This document shows positions 1,902 through 60,290 of a stretch of DNA of 64,000 nucleotides, in pieces (within the stretch, counting starts at the first letter, position 1; every line of letters begins with the position of its first letter). The notes below the pieces were generated by a model. It was not told where the DNA came from and did not search any database. It saw nothing but the letters and a program-made list of their open reading frames with translations. Source of the DNA: an uncultured Candidatus Saccharibacteria bacterium (GTDB lineage Bacteria > Patescibacteriota > Minisyncoccia > Phycocordibacterales > UBA9973); contig CAZWJU010000002.1 of the NCBI GenBank assembly GCA_964634365.1, positions 103,150-167,149 on the forward strand, written 5' to 3'. The translations under genes and the position numbers were made by a program.

Positions 1902-3791
1902 TTATACACTGAATACATCTCTAATGTGTCCATCCTTCACTTCAAATGCTAGAGAAACAAAAACTTTTGTATATGTAGAATCTGCATTTTTCTTCTCTAT
2001 TGTCACATAATAATTTCCATTTGAAATCAAACAGTAGTAGTGGCCTCTCGCATCAGAAACCTTGTGAGTAATTTCTTGATTATTGGATACAGAATACACG
2101 CGCAGAATTGCATATGATAGAGGTAGTCCTGTTGCTTTGTCTACAATACCTCCAAGTTTATGATTCTTGTACCCTACCTCTCTCAAAATAAACAAAAGTA
2201 TATATAGAGCAAATATAATTATGTTGTATAAAACAGGCGAAACCAAAAAGGCAATAAATGCTATGAAGAAACCGGCAGCAAAAAGAGTGTCTGATATTTG
2301 TCTAAAAATAGCATCGCGTCTTGAATAAAACTTCATCAATTTCTGTTGTTTTTTAGCAAATTCATTCCAATCGAAGTTGATCGGATCCATAGGGATATTT
2401 TTTGTTATAGGAGAATTCTCTGTAACCTCCAAGTCTTCACCAAAATACAAGTCTTGATATAGTTCGTCTTTTTTCTGTCCTGCTAATTTTTCTGAAGGAA
2501 ACTTATAGTTAGTTTTATTGGCAACTATTTTATAAGTCCCACTAGGTACCAAAAATCCAAAACGCCCATCTAGATCGGTTATAGATGTAGAAACTTCAGT
2601 TCCATATTTGTCGTACAAAACAACATAAGCAGGATCAAGTGGCTGCTTTGTTATAGAGTCATATACAGTTCCCCATGGTGGACGACGTTTCGATAGACCA
2701 AAAGCTGCTAGTAGTAGTGACCACAATCTAAAAGGTATGAAAACAAGTTCAGAGAGCGAAAGTGGATTCATAAATAGCAGTGAGGCAATAGATATAACCG
2801 CACTGGTTGTCAAAGCAAAACCAGTAAAAATCTTTGTAGCAAGACCTCCACTTTCGCTGTTTATATAATCCTCTATTCCTCCTGGTATACCATCTGTAAA
2901 ATCAATTCCTCCGTCTGTAATACAATCAATTCCTACGCAAATCTCTGGATCTGTAGGTGGGGGTACACAATCAGCACCGACACAAGTCTCTGGAGGATTG
3001 CACTCTTCACCTACACAACCAATCGGCGCATAATCACAAGGTGATGGACTGCCATAGTTTGTTGCAAACAAATCTTCACAGATATTTTCTTCTTCCGGTG
3101 GATTACAATCTTCACCTACACAGCCAACTGGTGCATAATCACAAGGCGAAGGCCCACCAAAATTTGTTGCTGCAACATCAGAACAGATAGAGATTGTGTA
3201 AGTACAAGGCAGTGCTCCGCCATAGTTTGCTGCATTCGTATCAGAACATAAACTAGGAGGATTACCGCCTCCACCTCCACCCGTAGTATCTCCATCTCTA
3301 GCATCTTTAGGTCTCCAATCAGTTTTCACACAAGCATCAGCGACTCCACAATCAAACTGAATCCAACCATAGTTTTCGCTCCATGCAAAACCTACAAATT
3401 CCCCGTCCATATCTATATAAACTTCTTGTGTAGAACTATTCGAGAAAGGGCCGAAGTTTATCCAGCCAGCAGCCTCACCCCATGCATATCCAGAAAGCTG
3501 ACCTCGAGAAGAATCTGTGTCTGGATCATTCAATACACCTCCTGAGTTAGGATCTAAGTGAATCCATCCTAGACTAGGACCCCAGATATCTCCAGTTACA
3601 GCGTCATCAGTTATAAGAACATCTTCTGCGCCAGCATTGCCAGGAACAAGCCAGTAAATCAATTGGCCGTGTGTGTATATTTTTGAAGTATAACTATCTA
3701 CATCGATAGTACCCTCTTCTTCAGAAGCAACTGCAGAAAAAACATTTAGAAAAAATATTGATATTATAAATAAAAATAAAATTTTCTTCAT
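1902..3791 (-). CDS. Large secreted, membrane-anchored protein. N-terminal repeats AW(G/S)E..GWI.F, tandem Cys-rich repeats about 35 aa long, TM segments, and a C-terminal CarboxypepD_reg-like beta domain.
   Basis: Signal peptide MKKILFLFIISIFFLNVFSAVASE. Repeats GYAWGEAAGWINF / GFAWSENYGWIQFD. Tandem repeats ATNFGGPSPCDYAPVGCVGEDCNPPEEENICEDLF x2-3. Hydrophobic helices. C-terminal GTYKIVANKTNYKF-like beta-sandwich motif. Confidence 0.6.
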   Translation of the reverse strand: MKKILFLFIISIFFLNVFSAVASEEEGTIDVDSYTSKIYTHGQLIYWLVPGNAGAEDVLITDDAVTGDIWGPSLGWIHLDPNSGGVLNDPDTDSSRGQLSGYAWGEAAGWINFGPFSNSSTQEVYIDMDGEFVGFAWSENYGWIQFDCGVADACVKTDWRPKDARDGDTTGGGGGGNPPSLCSDTNAANYGGALPCTYTISICSDVAATNFGGPSPCDYAPVGCVGEDCNPPEEENICEDLFATNYGSPSPCDYAPIGCVGEECNPPETCVGADCVPPPTDPEICVGIDCITDGGIDFTDGIPGGIEDYINSESGGLATKIFTGFALTTSAVISIASLLFMNPLSLSELVFIPFRLWSLLLAAFGLSKRRPPWGTVYDSITKQPLDPAYVVLYDKYGTEVSTSITDLDGRFGFLVPSGTYKIVANKTNYKFPSEKLAGQKKDELYQDLYFGEDLEVTENSPITKNIPMDPINFDWNEFAKKQQKLMKFYSRRDAIFRQISDTLFAAGFFIAFIAFLVSPVLYNIIIFALYILLFILREVGYKNHKLGGIVDKATGLPLSYAILRVYSVSNNQEITHKVSDARGHYYCLISNGNYYVTIEKKNADSTYTKVFVSLAFEVKDGHIRDVFSV

Positions 3792-20627: not shown

Positions 20628-20680
20628 ACAAGTATTATATCAGAACTTTTTAGGATTTTAGGCACATTATATACACAGCA

Positions 20681-30625: not shown

Positions 30626-30663
30626 AAGTCCTTAGACTATAACATGTAAACAACATAACAGTA

Positions 30664-31052
30664 AAAATCTACAACCCGCCTCTGGCGGGTTTTTTTCTAA
30701 TCATTACTTTTTCAAAAAAGTAATGCAAAAATTTCTTTGCGTATAACTCTGTGTATATTCACGAAACTCGGACTCACTAAAAGTATTAACTCGGCTACCA
30801 CCTCAAACAGAATACTTTTTCCTAACGGAACGTTCGTCCTCGTTTGTTCATATATACACAGAGTTATAAGGCAAAGCTAGGGCCCAAATACACCAATCCA
30901 TACTTTTAAAAAGTCTTGCGCAGCCGGGCAGGCGAGCAGAGCAAAAATCTAGCAAGATTTTATGCGTGCTTTTTAAAAGTTATGGATAAAAGAAAGTTTT
31001 CCGGAAACTAGGCTCTGAGTTACTGTAGACGTGATGTGGGTTACAAAAACAA
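30664..31052 (+). repeat. Copy A of a multi-copy structured non-coding element of about 390 nt. It starts with an A-run + cccgcc-tctg-gcggg hairpin. Strand uncertain.
   Basis: About 80-90% identical to 38181-38580 and 56392-56760. No ORF. Compensatory base changes between copies; see findings. Confidence 0.75.
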
Positions 31053-31083
31053 TAAAAAATCCCCAGAGGGGATTTTTTATTGT

Positions 31084-31389
31084 TTATCCTATTTGATTCA
31101 TTACTGACATACTTTCTCTTTGAAATTTTTCTGCTTCTTCTTTTGCAATATTTTCGAAATCAGAAACATTTTCTCGCAAGAATCCAATTATCATCTCAGG
31201 AGATGCGTCTTTGTCTAGCATCTCTTCAAATTCTGACTGGAGATTCTCTGGCATACCATCCATAACTCTCATCAATATCCCTTGAAATATTAGTGAGCCA
31301 ATCCGCTCAATAATATCATTTTGCTCGTCTTCTGAAAGGGAGCTGAGATTATATGCATTTATAATTGTTTGACGTAATTTTTGATCCAT
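31084..31389 (-). CDS. Small acidic hypothetical protein
   Basis: 101-aa ORF followed by a terminator hairpin at 31058-31083. Confidence 0.5.
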   Translation of the reverse strand: MDQKLRQTIINAYNLSSLSEDEQNDIIERIGSLIFQGILMRVMDGMPENLQSEFEEMLDKDASPEMIIGFLRENVSDFENIAKEEAEKFQRESMSVMNQIG

Positions 31390-38129: not shown

Positions 38130-38580
38130 TTCGAAAGAAAAAATCCCCTCCGGGGATTTTTTCTTTTATTTAAAATAAAAATCTACAACCCGCCTCTGGC
38201 GGGGTTCATTTTTTAATCATTACTTTTTTAAAAAAGTAATGCAAAAACTTCTTTGCATGTATGAAAAATCTAGCTCACAACACGATAGCTCGTTAAAAAT
38301 ATTAACTCGCCCCGCAGGCTCAAAGCGGGGCTCAAACAGAATATTTTTTACTCCGTAACACTCGCTCTCGTGTGTTCACTTACGATTTTTCATGCAAGGC
38401 AAAGCTAGGGTTCAAATACACCAATCCATACTTTTAAAAAGACTAGCGAGTGTGGCGACACGAGCTCGAGGAATTTTCTAGCAAGAAAATATCCGTGCTT
38501 TTTAAAAGTGATGGATAAAATAAAGTTTTCCGGAAACTAGACTCTGAGTTACTGTGGACGTGATATGGGTTACAAAAAAC
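38130..38580 (+). repeat. Copy B of the structured non-coding element. Includes a shared upstream terminator hairpin.
   Basis: ttcgaaagaaaaaatcccctccggggattttttc + atctacaacccgcctctggcgggg... Collinear with copies A and C. Confidence 0.75.
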
Positions 38581-38598
38581 AAAAACCCTTACGGGTTT

Positions 38599-39708
38599 CT
38601 ATTTCAAAGCTTTTATTCCAGGAAGCGTCCCTTTAGCCAAAAATTCTAAAGTAGCACCACCACCAGTAGAAACAAAAGTAAATTTATCTTCCATTTTCAT
38701 CTTGGACACAAGCGCAACCGTATCACCACCACCAATTATTGTCTTCGCTTTTGATTTAGCCAAGATTTTCAGTAGAGCAACAGTACCGTGATCGAAACCT
38801 GCTTCGTACTCTCCTGTCGGACCGTTCCATAGGACAAATTTTGATTTTTTTATTAGTATTTCAAACTCTCTTATTGTTCTATCTCCTATATCTACAATCT
38901 TATCCATCTTGCCCACCTCATCTATGCCTTTGGTTAGTCTTCCCCCGTCTTTACCAGTAACCACAACATCGACAGGTAACAGTAGTTTTGGATTGTTTAT
39001 TATTTTACTTATTCCATATTCTCCTTTTTCTACGAGAGATCTACCGACTTCAAAAGAAGCTTCTTTGAAAAAGTTGTTCATCAGCGCACCTGTAACCACT
39101 ACTCTATCTGCATCCTTTAGAAACTTTTTTATGAGAGGCATCTTTGTATCAAACTTTGCTCCACCTAAAATAAATAAAAATGGTCTTTTAGGTTTGTCTA
39201 GAACAATTGATAAGTTTTTAATTTCTTTTTCAAATTGAAATCCAACATATGATGGTAAGTATTTTGGAATCCCGACAATAGATGCGTGTTCTCTATGTGA
39301 AACCGGGAAGGCTTCATTTACATAAATATCAGCAAAACTAGCTAGATGTTTTGCAAATTTAGAATAATTTTCTTTTTCACCGATTTGTCGACGAATATTT
39401 TCTAGCAAAACAATTTCCCCTTTTTTTAGATCAATAGATTTTGGAACAGGTCCATCTATAAACCTAACTTTTATATGTTTATTTAAAAATTTTGCGACAG
39501 GTAAAAGTGTCTGTGCATCTTTTTGTAAATCAGAATGAGATACGAGTATTATCGAAGCTCCTTTTTTTTGTAGATACTGTATTGTAGGAAGTGCTTTTAA
39601 TATTCTAGTAGAATCTATTATTTTATCTCCTTCGATCGGAACATTAAAATCTGTTCTCAATAGAACTTTTTTACCTTTTAAATTTTTAATACTTTTTACT
39701 GATTTCAT
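38599..39708 (-). CDS. pgk: Phosphoglycerate kinase
   Basis: KGKKVLLRTDFNVP N-terminal motif, and the GGGA/GGGD C-terminal domain motifs. Confidence 0.85.
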   Translation of the reverse strand: MKSVKSIKNLKGKKVLLRTDFNVPIEGDKIIDSTRILKALPTIQYLQKKGASIILVSHSDLQKDAQTLLPVAKFLNKHIKVRFIDGPVPKSIDLKKGEIVLLENIRRQIGEKENYSKFAKHLASFADIYVNEAFPVSHREHASIVGIPKYLPSYVGFQFEKEIKNLSIVLDKPKRPFLFILGGAKFDTKMPLIKKFLKDADRVVVTGALMNNFFKEASFEVGRSLVEKGEYGISKIINNPKLLLPVDVVVTGKDGGRLTKGIDEVGKMDKIVDIGDRTIREFEILIKKSKFVLWNGPTGEYEAGFDHGTVALLKILAKSKAKTIIGGGDTVALVSKMKMEDKFTFVSTGGGATLEFLAKGTLPGIKALK

Positions 39709-56335: not shown

Positions 56336-56820
56336 TTCGAAAGAAAAAATCCCCTGGAGGGGATTTTTTCTTTTATTTTAAATAAAAATATACAACCCGC
56401 CTCTGGCGGGTTGTATTGTATTTTAAATATTACTTTTTCAAAAAAGTAATGCAAAAACTTCTTTGCATGTATCAAGAAAGACACTCACAAAACTCGGACT
56501 CACTAAAAGTATTAACTCGGCCACTACCTCAAACAGAATACTTTTTCCTGTCGGAACGTTCGTCCTTGTTTGTTCGTGTATATTTCTTGAAACAAGGCAA
56601 AGCTAGGGCCCAAATATAACCAATCCATACTTTTAAAAAGTCTTGCGCAAGGTCGACGGGCCGAGCAGAGCAATTCGCTAGCAAGCGAATATGCGTGCTT
56701 TTTAAAAGTTATGGATAAAATAAAGTTTTCCGGAAATTGGACTTTGGGTAGCCAATAAAAAAGATGAAGTTGTTTTGAAAAAGTAATGATTAAAAAAATG
56801 AACCCCGCCAGAGGCGAGTT
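56336..56820 (+). repeat. Copy C of the structured element. It carries terminal inverted repeats; the 3' end mirrors the 5' hairpin region.
   Basis: The 5' end cccgcctctggcggg...attactttttcaaaaaagtaat and the 3' end gaaaaagtaatgattaaaaaaatgaaccccgccagaggcg are mutually reverse-complementary. Confidence 0.75.
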
Positions 56821-56864
56821 ATTATTAACTATTCCCTTATCCCTTATCACTATTCCCTAAAATA

Positions 56865-58392: not shown

Positions 58393-58410
58393 AATTGGTG
58401 TATTTAGAAT

Positions 58411-58620
58411 CCTTGGAGCCTAACTTTGCCTTGTAGATTTACATATCTAGACGAACGCAAATAGTGTTTCAAAAGACTCTGTGTAGTGCGACGGCGCGAA
58501 ACAAAGAAAATTTATAGCAGTAAATTTTCGTGTCTTTTGAAACACTATTAAGTGAGTTGTTTTTTGAAAAAGTAATAGTTAAACAAGTAAAGAAAAATTC
58601 CGCTTTGCGGAATTTTTCTT
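58411..58620 (+). repeat. Partial, diverged copy D of the structured element. It holds the conserved three-way-junction core plus a 3' hairpin.
   Basis: tagtgtttcaaaagact...aaaatttaTAGCAGtaaatttt...gtcttttgaaacacta aligns with the core of copies A-C, with compensatory changes. Confidence 0.6.
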
Positions 58621-58763
58621 TGAATTTTTAATACATAAACTACCGAGCGTATTCTATTACTCTCGCCTCTCGAATCAAGGTTACCCCGGTACGAAAATTG
58701 CACAGCGAATGCCTGTGCAATTTCATACGGGGCGAGACGTGGTAAATTTATTTTTTGTGATTT

Positions 58764-60290
58764 CTATCTTGCATACTCAATTACCCGAGTTTCTCTAATC
58801 AGGGTGACTTTTATTTCACCTGGATATTTCAATTCAGACTCTATTTTCTTTGCTATCTCACGAGCCATCTCTTTTGCTTCTACATCACCGACTTTTTCAG
58901 GAGTTACAAAAAGTCGTATCTCGCGACCAGCTTGGAGTGCATAAGATTTTTCTACACCTTCAAACTGATTTACAAGAGCTTCAAGTTCTGCAAGTCTGCG
59001 CAAGTAGTTTTCGACACTATCACGTCTTGCACCAGGTCTTCCGCCAGATATATAGTCTGCTGTTTGTACTATCACAGCTTCTAGTGTTTCGTGTGGGCAG
59101 TCATCGTGGTGAGATTTCATAGCTTGTATAACGCGTGGATCAGCACCAAATTTCTGCAAGATTCTGATACCGATATCTATGTGTGTACCTTGAACCTCAT
59201 GGTCTAGGGCCTTACCTATATCATGTACAAGCGCACCAGCTTTTGCTATCTGCACATCTGCACCGAGCTCTTCGGCTATCATGCCCGCGATGTGAGTCAT
59301 CTCAATTGAGTGTTGAAGTACGTTTTGTCCATAACTTGTTCGGAAATATAGACGTCCGATTATGGCTACTATACGAGGATCGAAGTTGAATATTCCACAT
59401 TCGTACACTGCTTGCTCACCCTTCTCTTTGATAATTTTATTTATATCTTCTTTTGCCTTATCTACCATTTCTTCGATCTTTGCAGGTTGGATACGTCCAT
59501 CGAGGATTAGGTTCTCAAGTGCAAGTCTTGCTATCTGTCTCCTAACTGGATCAAAACTAGATATTACAATAGTTCCAGGTGTGTCATCTACGATTAGCTC
59601 TACTCCGGCTGCACGCTCAAACGCTCTGATGTTTCGTCCTTCCTTTCCAATTATCTTTCCTTTGATTTCATCGTTTGGAATAGAAACGTTTGTCGCCATC
59701 AGTTCAGCTGCAGTAGAAGATGCTAGTCTTTGGATTGATGTTGCGAGTATTTCTTTTGCGCGTCCATCGAGTTTCTCCTGACCTGATTGTTCGAGCTTCT
59801 GGATTCTAACAAGTAAATCTTCTTCATAATCTTTTTCGATAGTAGTCATGAGCTCTGCTTTTGCATCTTCGCGAGTTAGTCCGGCTACACGCTCAAGCTC
59901 TTTGTGTTTTGTTTCTTCTAGCTCAACTGTTTTTTCTTTGATTTTTTTGATCTCTTCAACTTTGAGTTTTATATTCTCAACCTCTTTGTCTATTTCGGTT
60001 TGGCGAGCATCTAAAAGCTCCTCTTTTTTGATAAGGCGCTTTTCAGTTTCTTTGAACTCTATTTCGCGATTTTTCTCTTCCCTTTTTAGTTCTTCGTCAC
60101 GCTCCTCAGCTTTCTTTTTTGCTTCGTCTATTATTCTTTGCGCTTCCTCTTTTGCAGAGATCAATATCTTTTTGATCTCAAGCTCCATTGAACCCTTTTG
60201 TCCGAGGGCTATGATTAGTCGGAGATAATATCCGACTGCAACACCTACGACTAGTGCTAGTCCTAGGAATGCCAATAAATGTAAATTCAT
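58764..60290 (-). CDS. rny: Ribonuclease Y
   Basis: N-terminal TM, coiled coil, KH domain (GKIIGKEGRNIRAFE) and HD domain (HSIEMTHIAG...LVHDIGK). Confidence 0.9.
   Translation of the reverse strand: MNLHLLAFLGLALVVGVAVGYYLRLIIALGQKGSMELEIKKILISAKEEAQRIIDEAKKKAEERDEELKREEKNREIEFKETEKRLIKKEELLDARQTEIDKEVENIKLKVEEIKKIKEKTVELEETKHKELERVAGLTREDAKAELMTTIEKDYEEDLLVRIQKLEQSGQEKLDGRAKEILATSIQRLASSTAAELMATNVSIPNDEIKGKIIGKEGRNIRAFERAAGVELIVDDTPGTIVISSFDPVRRQIARLALENLILDGRIQPAKIEEMVDKAKEDINKIIKEKGEQAVYECGIFNFDPRIVAIIGRLYFRTSYGQNVLQHSIEMTHIAGMIAEELGADVQIAKAGALVHDIGKALDHEVQGTHIDIGIRILQKFGADPRVIQAMKSHHDDCPHETLEAVIVQTADYISGGRPGARRDSVENYLRRLAELEALVNQFEGVEKSYALQAGREIRLFVTPEKVGDVEAKEMAREIAKKIESELKYPGEIKVTLIRETRVIEYAR

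What the first reader, a model, noticed from the sequence alone, without database searches (positions are those of the whole stretch)
56336..56820. Copy C carries terminal inverted repeats, which suggests a MITE-like origin
The 3' end of copy C (gttttgaaaaagtaatgattaaaaaaatgaaccccgccagaggcgag, about 56775-56820) is the reverse complement of the element 5' end as seen in copy B (cgcctctggcggggttcattttttaatcattacttttt...). Note the loop orientation: tctg at the 5' end against caga at the 3' end.

Copies A and B lack this 3' TIR and end in a different shared block (ccggaaactaggctctgagttactgtagacgtgat...). The family therefore has variable ends, consistent with a decaying non-autonomous transposable element that carries a structured core.
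Basis: seen in the sequence. Interest (0 to 1): 0.65.

Follow-up and report, generated by a model that had tools for sequence, protein, structure and literature searches.

The report
Mosaic folded intergenic repeat, not a MITE
The inverted repeat at the end of copy C is real, but it is one movable module of a previously undescribed family of strongly folded intergenic repeats in a small group of ultra-small (Nomurabacteria-like) bacteria. The parts of this family are reshuffled and flipped between close relatives, and it lacks the hallmarks of a classical miniature transposon.

Summary
Observation confirmed. Window 56773-56822 is the reverse complement of the family's 5' leader: a GC hairpin with an asymmetric loop, a non-palindromic spacer and the first half of the ATTAC...GTAAT palindrome. 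It matches copy B's leader at 45/48 positions, and 0 of 2000 shuffles reach that score.

- Copies A and B lack the repeat.
- There is no target-site duplication.
- No transposase, recombinase or reverse transcriptase was found in the 64 kb.
- The same inverted leader also follows a fourth, divergent copy D (58395-58632).

The element is a mosaic of a leader, a rod-like domain 1 and a three-way-junction domain 2 (types alpha and beta). Both domains show strong compensatory base-pair change: for domain 2, 94.8% of cells are paired against about 50% for slid controls. No Rfam family matches.

Relatives carry different arrangements at the same gene junctions.
- Some have divergent alpha/beta twins without domain 1.
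- A genome with a 93% identical UvrD protein has both full elements flipped, with the domain 2 type swapped.
- Relatives whose PGK is 65-67% identical have an empty site.

Best reading: a BOX/BIME/REPIN-like, structure-selected mosaic repeat that rearranges at internal palindromes. Copy C's inverted repeat is one product of that. The mechanism of spread and whether the element is transcribed remain unknown.

The parts
56339..56374 (+). Terminator hairpin of the trigger-factor gene (AAAAAATCCCC-TGGA-GGGGATTTTTT). Near-identical hairpins lie at 38134-38166 and 31055-31081.
   Evidence: Terminator scan; inverted-repeat pairs I2-I4.
56383..56450 (+). Leader module of copy C: conserved TAAAAATATACAA, hairpin CCCGCCTCTGGCGGG (56396-56410), spacer, and the 22-nt palindrome ATTACTTTTTCAAAAAAGTAAT (56429-56450).
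   Evidence: Repeat family D3; motif searches; leader alignment A7.
56458..56606 (+). Domain 1 of copy C: a rod-like fold closed by CTTCTTTGC / GCAAAGCTAG, with a long stem whose sequence differs completely between copies.
   Evidence: RNAalifold on A, B and C: 61 pairs, 21 with changes on both sides.
56620..56769 (+). Domain 2 of copy C (alpha type): a long AU-rich stem enclosing two hairpins, followed by the tail GGATAAAATAAAGTTTTCCGGAAAT.
   Evidence: Covariance model R1, 157.3 bits; covariation counts.
56773..56822 (-). Inverted copy of the leader module, which is the 'TIR' of the finding. It is B-like and ends inside the palindrome. On the + strand it reads as a weak hairpin followed by TTATTATT.
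   Evidence: (I1).
30662..31085 (+). Copy A: leader 30662-30724, domain 1 about 30734-30882, domain 2 (alpha) 30893-31040, tail and terminator 31055-31081. No inverted leader.
38176..38600 (+). Copy B: leader 38176-38240, domain 1 about 38248-38410 (with an extra hairpin), domain 2 (beta) 38421-38569, tail and terminator. No inverted leader.
58395..58632 (+). Copy D, divergent and short. It has an inverted copy of the linker (AAGGCAAAGTTAGGC...AAATACACCAAT on the - strand, 58395-58432), domain 2 on the + strand (58458-58602), and an inverted leader with hairpin TTCCGCTTTGCGGAA (58562-58622).

Best explanation
Copy C belongs to a lineage-specific family of mosaic, palindrome-rich, structure-selected intergenic repeats. 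These repeats sit beside terminators, mostly between convergent genes.

The family is built from four kinds of module:
- a leader (GC hairpin, spacer and the ATTAC...GTAAT palindrome);
- domain 1, a rod;
- domain 2, a three-way junction in alpha and beta versions;
- short tails and terminator hairpins.

The modules are joined in different orders and orientations in different copies and in different close relatives. The 'TIR' of copy C is a second, B-like leader module joined in inverted orientation behind domain 2. The join lies within the leader palindrome, and copy D has the same arrangement.

Shown here: the anatomy, the conserved folds and the rearrangements.

Inferred:
- Rearrangement happens by recombination or template switching at the internal palindromes and between inverted copies. 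Palindromes act as both direct and inverted repeats.
- The fold is selected at the level of a single strand, most likely a transcript of the strand drawn here.
- In copy C the two inverted leaders would pair into a closing duplex of about 45 bp, and the 3' one doubles as a weak terminator.

Whether a trans-acting enzyme spreads the family is unknown.
For: The inverted module:
- It is real and specific.
- It is closer to B's leader than to C's own, which indicates exchange between copies.
- The same junction (G(A)AGTTG + TTTTGAAAAAGTAAT..TTAAA + hairpin) occurs in copy D with a different hairpin.

The folds:
- Domain 2, 10 sequences: 94.8% of cells paired against 37-52% for slid controls. 15 of 33 pairs change on both sides. 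At most 1 of 500 shuffles reaches any measure.
- Domain 1: 61 pairs, 21 of them compensatory, in three copies.
- Minimum-free-energy z-scores are -7.6 to -9.7.
- G-U outnumbers A-C 12 to 4 in domain 2 on the drawn strand.

Mosaic arrangements in relatives:
- L120 and L153, downstream of trigger factor, and L154 downstream of PGK, carry divergent alpha/beta domain 2 twins without domain 1.
- L166 has such a twin upstream of PrgI, where the window and L165 have none.
- L165 (UvrD 93% identical, same gene order) has both full elements flipped and the alpha/beta types swapped, while the domain 1 type stays site-specific.
- L156 and L157 are also flipped, whereas L158 is oriented like the window.
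- L160, L163 and L164 have an empty site.

Negative results:
- No Rfam family matches.
- No transposase was found in the window.
- No target-site duplication was found.
Against: - Transcription has not been shown, and promoter-like sites are not enriched.
- The strand call rests on a modest G-U/A-C imbalance. A G-T mismatch is also the most tolerated one in DNA hairpins.
- Only about 64 kb of this genome and about 150 kb of relatives were seen, so a matching transposase or recombinase could lie elsewhere.
- The recombination-at-palindromes mechanism is inferred from end states only.
- The parallel flip of two sites in L165 suits an active, directed process better than random recombination.
Confidence: 0.5

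Rival explanations
1. The copies are a family of real non-coding RNA genes. They are paralogous structured RNAs of about 150-370 nt, transcribed on the drawn strand. Copy C's 3' inverted leader serves as the terminator and as a 5'-3' closing stem, for example for RNase III processing as in rRNA precursors. The variable arrangements reflect gene duplication and loss.
For: - Covariation is strong in both domains.
- G-U exceeds A-C on one strand.
- Loop and junction nucleotides are conserved, including the (U)AGCA loop, CGAGC and GGAUAAAA.
- Each copy ends at a terminator-like hairpin.
- The AT-rich centres of the twins contain sigma-70-like hexamers just upstream of alpha, for example TTAAAA-18-TAGAAT in L120.
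- The minimum-free-energy fold of copy C pairs the two leaders.
Against: - Promoter-like sites are not above shuffle expectation.
- The full elements in the window have a GC-rich linker before domain 2 and no clear promoter.
- Orientation relative to neighbours flips between near-identical gene contexts, and the partner domain is swapped.
- Sites are empty in somewhat more distant relatives.
- The density of about one copy per 10-16 kb is unlike ordinary RNA genes.
- There is no Rfam match.
Confidence: 0.2
2. The element is a classical MITE: a non-autonomous cut-and-paste element defined by terminal inverted repeats, which makes target-site duplications and is mobilised by a DDE transposase encoded elsewhere. 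On this view copies A and B are decayed.
For: - Copy C has an inverted repeat of about 48 nt at its ends.
- The family is multi-copy, AT-rich, highly base-paired and intergenic.
- Presence or absence varies between relatives.
Against: - Only 1 of 3 full copies has the repeat, and that repeat is nearer to another copy's leader than to its own.
- The repeat ends inside a palindrome, and the conserved 13 nt upstream of the hairpin are outside it.
- There is no target-site duplication of 4 nt or more.
- No transposase was found in the window.
- Relatives carry domain 2 twins with neither leader nor domain 1.
- Stems covary instead of keeping a fixed binding sequence.
Confidence: 0.08
3. The element is an invertible DNA segment. 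The inverted leaders, or the inverted alpha/beta domain 2 arms, are sites between which a recombinase or homologous recombination flips the interior. This toggles which strand or which domain 2 is joined to the leader and domain 1.
For: - Copy C has exactly the inverted-repeat-flanked layout, with about 350 bp between 48-nt repeats.
- At two orthologous sites, the element's orientation relative to unchanged flanking genes is opposite in the window and in L165. The domain 1 type is retained and the domain 2 type is swapped.
- Orientation states are mixed across relatives with 81-93% protein identity.
- The leader core is a 10-2-10 palindrome.
Against: - No recombinase was found in the window.
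- A and B have no second leader.
- No locus was seen with both domain 2 arms flanking the leader-domain 1 unit.
- A symmetric pair of leaders would make inversion functionally silent.
- Only assemblies were available, not reads, so heterogeneity within a population could not be tested.
Confidence: 0.12
4. The repeat is an assembly artefact. On this view the inverted leader at copy C's 3' end is a chimeric join made by the assembler at a repeated palindrome.
For: Short-read assemblies of relatives break at these elements.
Against: - The same junction type occurs independently in copy D with a different hairpin.
- The flanks continue into the conserved 221-aa gene, as in L120 and L153.
- The inverted module differs from every other copy by substitutions and an indel, so it is not a copy-paste of B.
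Confidence: 0.03

Closest known systems
BOX elements of streptococci: composite boxA-boxB(n)-boxC repeats, including the larger boxE/boxF types of S. suis. SPRITE, the terminator-like repeat, is related.
   Same: - They are modular intergenic repeats in which modules occur in varying permutations.
- They are predicted to fold extensively if transcribed.
- They have no transposase of their own.
- Module sizes in S. suis reach 115-133 nt.
- SPRITE parallels the repeated terminator hairpins seen here.
(PMC3049150, read.)
   Different: - There is no sequence relation to BOX.
- The modules here are larger (about 150 nt each).
- Domain 2 is a branched fold with many compensatory changes.
- Modules are found inverted relative to one another.
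- The host is a Patescibacterium.
REPINs and BIMEs: REP doublets in inverted orientation, and mosaic REP clusters, mobilised by RAYT (Y1/HUH) transposases.
   Same: - The alpha/beta twin is two related palindromic units in inverted orientation with a short spacer, like a REPIN (PMC3116915 and PMC3337134, abstracts).
- Location is extragenic, next to gene ends.
- The mosaics consist of two unit types in alternating orientation, as in BIMEs (my own knowledge).
- Structure is kept more than sequence.
   Different: - Units are about 150 nt with a three-way junction, against about 20-40 nt simple hairpins.
- No RAYT was seen, though only 64 kb was searched.
- Full elements carry an extra domain 1 and a leader.
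Prokaryotic MITEs (Correia, RUP, Nezha, ERIC-like)
   Same: They are short, AT-rich, highly base-paired, non-coding, multi-copy and intergenic. Copy C has terminal inverted repeats. The definition used is the one in PMC3049150 and PMC10969869.
   Different: - The inverted repeats are not a family feature.
- There is no target-site duplication.
- No partner IS was found.
- The internal stems covary.
Invertible promoter or gene segments ('invertons'; fimS, hin)
   Same: Inverted repeats flank a segment of a few hundred bp, and opposite orientations occur at the same locus in close relatives.
   Different: No invertase gene is nearby. Most copies lack the second repeat. No promoter has been identified, and no within-population heterogeneity has been shown. 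This comparison rests on my own knowledge.

Membership tests
MITE | Terminal inverted repeats at both ends of family members | tested here: not met
   Only copy C has them, plus the variant in D. A and B end in a different shared tail. Relatives' twins have no leader at all.
MITE | Target-site duplication flanking the element | tested here: not met
   No direct repeat of 4-10 nt at any plausible boundary of copy C's inverted repeat. Filled and empty sites are too diverged to define other boundaries.
MITE | A partner IS or transposase whose ends match the repeat | tested here: inconclusive
   No transposase Pfam hit in about 50 window ORFs. The rest of the genome could not be searched.
MITE | Short, AT-rich, highly base-paired, multi-copy, intergenic | tested here: met
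   Four copies in 64 kb, all intergenic. Fold z-scores are -7.6 to -9.7.
REPIN / BIME | Two related palindromic units in inverted orientation with a short spacer | tested here: met
   Alpha/beta domain 2 twins occur in L120, L153, L154 and L166, with centres of 23-37 nt. The units are about five times larger than REPs.
REPIN / BIME | A RAYT (Y1 HUH transposase) gene in the genome | not testable with these tools
   None in the window. Whole-genome access was exhausted.
BOX-type composite repeats | Defined modules that occur in varying permutations and copy numbers | tested here: met
   Combinations seen: leader-dom1-dom2alpha, leader-dom1-dom2beta, dom2 twins, dom2 plus inverted leader, and a remnant.
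BOX-type composite repeats | Sequence homology to boxA/B/C | not tested
   No BOX model was available. The host and the sequence are unrelated by eye.
Any described RNA family (Rfam 15, which I expected to include HEARO and other transposon-associated RNA motifs) | Covariance-model match at or near the gathering score | tested here: not met
   There were 0 hits at gathering score in the window. In the E-value searches, only terminator or long-hairpin look-alikes far below threshold appeared, and there were 0 hits at E<=1 on copy B.
Inverton (invertible DNA switch) | Inverted repeats flanking the segment | tested here: inconclusive
   Met for copy C. Not met for A and B.
Inverton (invertible DNA switch) | Both orientations present in one population, and an invertase | not testable with these tools
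   Opposite orientations were seen only between genomes.

The most novel reading that the evidence does not exclude
The elements are programmed invertible cassettes of structured-RNA genes. A leader-domain 1 unit sits between two inverted domain 2 arms (alpha and beta), or between two inverted leaders as in copy C. It is flipped by a dedicated or hairpin-templated mechanism, so that domain 1 is fused alternately to alpha or to beta. This would be DNA-level switching between two composite RNAs, in a genome-reduced Patescibacterium.
Probability: 0.12. Interest if true: 0.8.

Novelty: new variant of a known kind. Interest (0 to 1): 0.5.

Why it matters
Patescibacteria have very small, tightly packed genomes. 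A folded repeat present about once per 10-16 kb is therefore a notable investment. Extrapolated to a 705 kb genome, which is an inference, that is a few per cent of the DNA.

The family gives a clean natural experiment. The same gene junctions in genomes whose proteins are 81-93% identical carry the modules in different orders and orientations, while base-pairing is preserved. That makes two questions testable: how structure-selected repeats spread and rearrange without an obvious transposase, and whether they are functional RNAs.

Practically, these repeats break short-read assemblies of this clade, and spurious ORFs can be called across them. One example is the 108-aa ORF at 56524..56850 on the - strand.

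Tried and rejected
- **Genome scan with too short a pattern.** AAGGCAAAGCTAGGG gave 118 loci in the genome collection, all chance matches with no BLAST similarity to the element.
- **First metagenome pattern.** The linker motif found nothing. The second pattern, from the tail, found one true relative (L153) among 31 loci.
- **Viral and phage searches.** Viral contigs and GenBank phages gave no match, so there is no sign of a phage origin.
- **Rfam.** Nothing at gathering score. The E-value searches gave only terminator or hairpin look-alikes or nothing at E<=1.
- **tRNA/tmRNA scan.** None found.
- **A small protein encoded in the element.** The 47-aa ORFs in A and C are alike only because the DNA there is 92% identical. 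B has a 13-nt insertion that shifts the frame. Rejected.
- **Copy D as a minus-strand copy.** This was suggested by the minus-strand hits of the leader and linker motifs. The covariance model instead places its domain 2 on the + strand at 60.9 bits, with no minus-strand hit. D is a mosaic with its frame inverted relative to domain 2.
- **Promoter assignment.** Scans are not above shuffle expectation. The twin centres hold plausible hexamers, but I do not rely on them.
- **The leader hairpin as merely the upstream gene's terminator.** Rejected for B and C, which have a separate terminator just upstream. Its sequence and loop are also identical in A, B and C.

Full report
**1. The observation**

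The window holds three + strand copies of an intergenic element of about 400 nt:
- copy A at 30662-31085;
- copy B at 38176-38600;
- copy C at 56383-56835.

Each copy begins with a 'leader'. This consists of the conserved TAAAAATCTACAA, the hairpin CCCGCCTCTGGCGGG, a spacer, and the 22-nt palindrome ATTACTTTTT(C/T)AAAAAAGTAAT.

The 3' end of copy C (56773-56822) is the reverse complement of this leader.
- It matches B's leader at 45/48 positions with one T indel, A's at 43/48, and C's own at 47/57.
- 0 of 2000 shuffles approach the score.
- The hairpin motif occurs 4 times in the window against 0 expected.

The match covers the asymmetric loop (TCT against AGA) and the non-palindromic spacer. 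A and B lack the repeat and share another tail.

Two refinements apply. Similarity ends inside the palindrome, and the 13 nt upstream of the hairpin are not included.

**2. A fourth copy**

A covariance model of the 3' domain (R1) finds A, B and C at 151-164 bits. It also finds a divergent fourth copy, D, at 58458-58602 on the + strand (60.9 bits, E about 2e-9). It finds nothing else in the window.

D is followed by the same kind of inverted leader as C (GAGTTG TTTTTTGAAAAAGTAAT AG TTAAAC), but with a different hairpin, TTCCGCTTTGCGGAA. It is preceded by an inverted copy of the linker that normally lies between the two domains.

So 'domain 2 followed by an inverted leader' recurs. Copy C's repeat is a junction type, not a one-off.

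**3. Anatomy and fold**

*Domain 1.* In C this spans 56458-56606. It is a rod closed by CTTCTTTGC/GCAAAGCTAG. It has a perfectly paired stem of up to 17 bp whose sequence differs entirely between copies. RNAalifold on A, B and C gives 61 pairs, 21 of them with changes on both sides.

*Domain 2.* In C this spans 56620-56769. It is a long AU-rich stem enclosing two hairpins, followed by a conserved single-stranded tail (GGATAAAAGAAAGTTTTCCGGAAAC). I counted base pairs on ten sequences from four genomes:
- 94.8% of cells pair, against 37-52% when the partners are slid by 1-3 columns;
- 15 of 33 pairs change on both sides;
- at most 1 of 500 shuffles reaches any of the five measures.

Domain 2 comes in two versions:
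- alpha (GAGCAGAGCAA...TATGCGTGC) in A and C;
- beta (GAGCTCGAGGAA...TATCCGTGC) in B.

G-U pairs outnumber A-C mismatches 12 to 4 on the drawn strand. This is a modest argument that the drawn strand is the one under selection.

Whole copies fold far better than shuffles, with z from -7.6 to -9.7. In the minimum-free-energy fold of copy C, the two inverted leaders pair into a long closing helix.

No Rfam family matches at the gathering score. The permissive searches gave only distant look-alikes far below threshold or nothing at E<=1. There are no tRNAs. A conserved small ORF is excluded by a frame-shifting insertion in B.

**4. Context**

The organism is a Patescibacterium of the Paceibacteria/Nomurabacteria kind. 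The evidence is the trigger-factor, PGK and UvrD relatives, DUF5663 and a PPIase-less trigger factor.

B, C and D lie between convergent housekeeping genes:
- M23 peptidase and PGK;
- trigger factor and a 221-aa protein;
- ClpP and RNase Y.

A lies between DUF5663 and UvrD. None of the roughly 50 ORFs scanned has a transposase, recombinase, reverse-transcriptase or TnpB/IscB domain.

**5. Relatives, the most informative part**

I fetched the same gene junctions from relatives through their proteins.

*Downstream of trigger factor.* L120 (protein 93% identical) and L153 do not carry the full element. They carry two domain 2 units only, alpha and beta, back to back in divergent orientation.

*Downstream of PGK.*

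| Locus | PGK identity | What lies after PGK |
|---|---|---|
| L158 | 92% | Oriented like the window |
| L156 / L157 | 85% | Leader and a B-type domain 1 in the opposite orientation |
| L154 / L155 | 81% | A beta/alpha twin |
| L160, L163, L164 | 65-67% | No element; PGK abuts the next gene |

*L165.* This is CP064973.1, a 705 kb Candidatus Nomurabacteria genome whose UvrD is 93% identical. It has the window's gene order (PGK, M23, two large proteins, DUF5663, UvrD). Both elements, however, are flipped relative to the genes and carry the other domain 2 type.
- At the PGK-M23 site, the window has beta joined to B-type domain 1 pointing toward PGK. L165 has B-type domain 1 joined to alpha pointing away from PGK.
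- At the DUF5663-UvrD site, the window has alpha with A-type domain 1. L165 has A-type domain 1 with beta, in the opposite orientation.

*L166.* This comes from the same genome as L154.
- At the DUF5663-UvrD site it has only a 156-nt remnant centred on the palindrome CCTTATTTTCTAGAAAATAAGG.
- It has a twin upstream of PrgI, where the window and L165 have none.

*Assembly breaks.* Short-read contigs of relatives end inside or beside these elements.

*Distribution.* Two metagenome pattern scans found just one further carrier. Viral and phage collections had none. The family therefore looks narrow in distribution.

**6. Interpretation**

The data show a mosaic repeat family. Its modules (leader, domain 1, domain 2 alpha/beta, tails, terminator-like hairpins) are re-joined in different orders and orientations on a short evolutionary timescale, while their base-pairing is maintained.

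Copy C's 'TIR' is a second leader module. It is more like B's than C's own, and it is joined in inverted orientation behind domain 2. The junction lies within the leader palindrome.

The observed junctions lie at or next to palindromes:
- ATTACTTTTT-CA-AAAAAGTAAT in copies C and D;
- TTTCTAGAAA in the L166 remnant.

Palindromes read the same on both strands, so they can serve as both direct and inverted repeats. I therefore infer recombination or template switching at these motifs, and between inverted copies, as the rearrangement mechanism.

An attractive scheme for the L165/window contrast has a leader-domain 1 unit lying between inverted beta and alpha arms. The unit flips, and one arm is then lost. 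This fits the L154 twin order, but no locus with all three parts was seen (note).

Which molecule is under selection (transcript or single-stranded DNA), and whether an enzyme drives spread, are not shown.

**7. Comparison with known systems**

*Classical MITE.* The definition I used is: terminal inverted repeats, target-site duplications, AT-rich, highly base-paired, mobilised by a matching IS (PMC3049150; PMC10969869).
- The TIR criterion fails for the family.
- The target-site duplication criterion fails for copy C.
- The transposase criterion is unresolved.
- Only the generic properties are met.

*Closest analogues.*
- The composite BOX-type repeats and the terminator-like SPRITE of streptococci share modules in varying permutations and extensive predicted RNA structure.
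- REPIN/BIME-type repeats share two related palindromic units in inverted orientation (PMC3116915 and PMC3337134).

The differences are the size of the units (about 150 nt), a branched fold with abundant compensatory change, inversion of modules relative to each other, and the host phylum.

I file this as a new variant of a known kind (small interspersed mosaic repeats), not as a member of any named family.

**8. Rivals**

- *A true RNA gene family (0.2).* It is favoured by the covariation and the conserved loops. It is disfavoured by the lack of clear promoters, the flipping and partner swapping, the empty sites and the copy density.
- *An inversion switch (0.12).* It is favoured by copy C's layout and by the two parallel flips in L165. 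It is untested at read level, and no invertase was seen.
- *A classical MITE (0.08).*
- *An assembly artefact (0.03).*

**9. Verdict**

The MITE interpretation is only partly right. The locus is more interesting as a dynamic, structure-conserved mosaic repeat family of a genome-reduced lineage than as a decaying transposon. Interest is 0.5.

Noticed in passing
window 58640-58764: Between copy D's terminator and the RNase Y stop there is a GC-richer stretch with nested stems (CTCGCC...CCCCGGTACGAAAATTGCACAGCGAATGCCTGTGCAATTTCATACGGGGCGAG). It is unrelated to the repeat family and has no Rfam hit at gathering score.
   Followed up: no
window 31055-31081, 38139-38165, 56345-56371; L120 5327-5352: Near-identical terminator hairpins AAAAAATCCCC-nnn-GGGGATTTTTT recur behind unrelated genes, so the terminators themselves look like repeated modules. 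In L165 the same hairpin TCCGCTTTGCGGA flanks the element on both sides. In L156 its loop is AAA instead of TTT.
   Followed up: partly
window 20630-20665 (- strand); L165 20043-20076; L166 20080-20115: A conserved PrgI upstream region contains TTCTGATATAAT, an extended -10 box. This shows that sigma-70-type promoters are used in this lineage.
   Followed up: no
window about 14050-38120, compared with L154 and L166: In the window and L165, a block of about 25 kb lies between HIT/RecJ and PGK. It holds T4SS-like VirB4/TraG and PrgI genes, large proteins without Pfam hits, KsgA, UvrD, DUF5663 and M23 peptidase. In GCA_031972635.1, PGK is followed directly by the HIT/RecJ neighbourhood, and the block lies elsewhere on the same contig. 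Copy B sits at the PGK-side junction.
   Followed up: partly
L119, L121, L156, L157, L158, L159 (contig ends): Short-read Logan contigs of this clade stop inside or within about 170 nt of an element, so the repeat fragments assemblies.
   Followed up: partly
window 56524-56850 (- strand): A 108-aa GTG ORF runs antisense through copy C. It has no counterpart in A or B and is most likely spurious, but a gene caller could report it.
   Followed up: partly
window 2989-3189: Two adjacent copies of a 96-nt unit, 76% identical and spaced 105 nt apart, lie inside the 629-aa ORF 1902..3791 (CarboxypepD_reg-domain protein). This is probably a repeated protein domain.
   Followed up: no
L165 9836-9862 vs window 38478-38504: The beta-type inner hairpin GGAATTTTCTAGCAAGAAAATATCC is identical in L165's site A copy and the window's site B copy. 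The alpha-type hairpin of window copy A is identical to that of the L166 twin. This hints at exchange of domain 2 units between sites or genomes.
   Followed up: no
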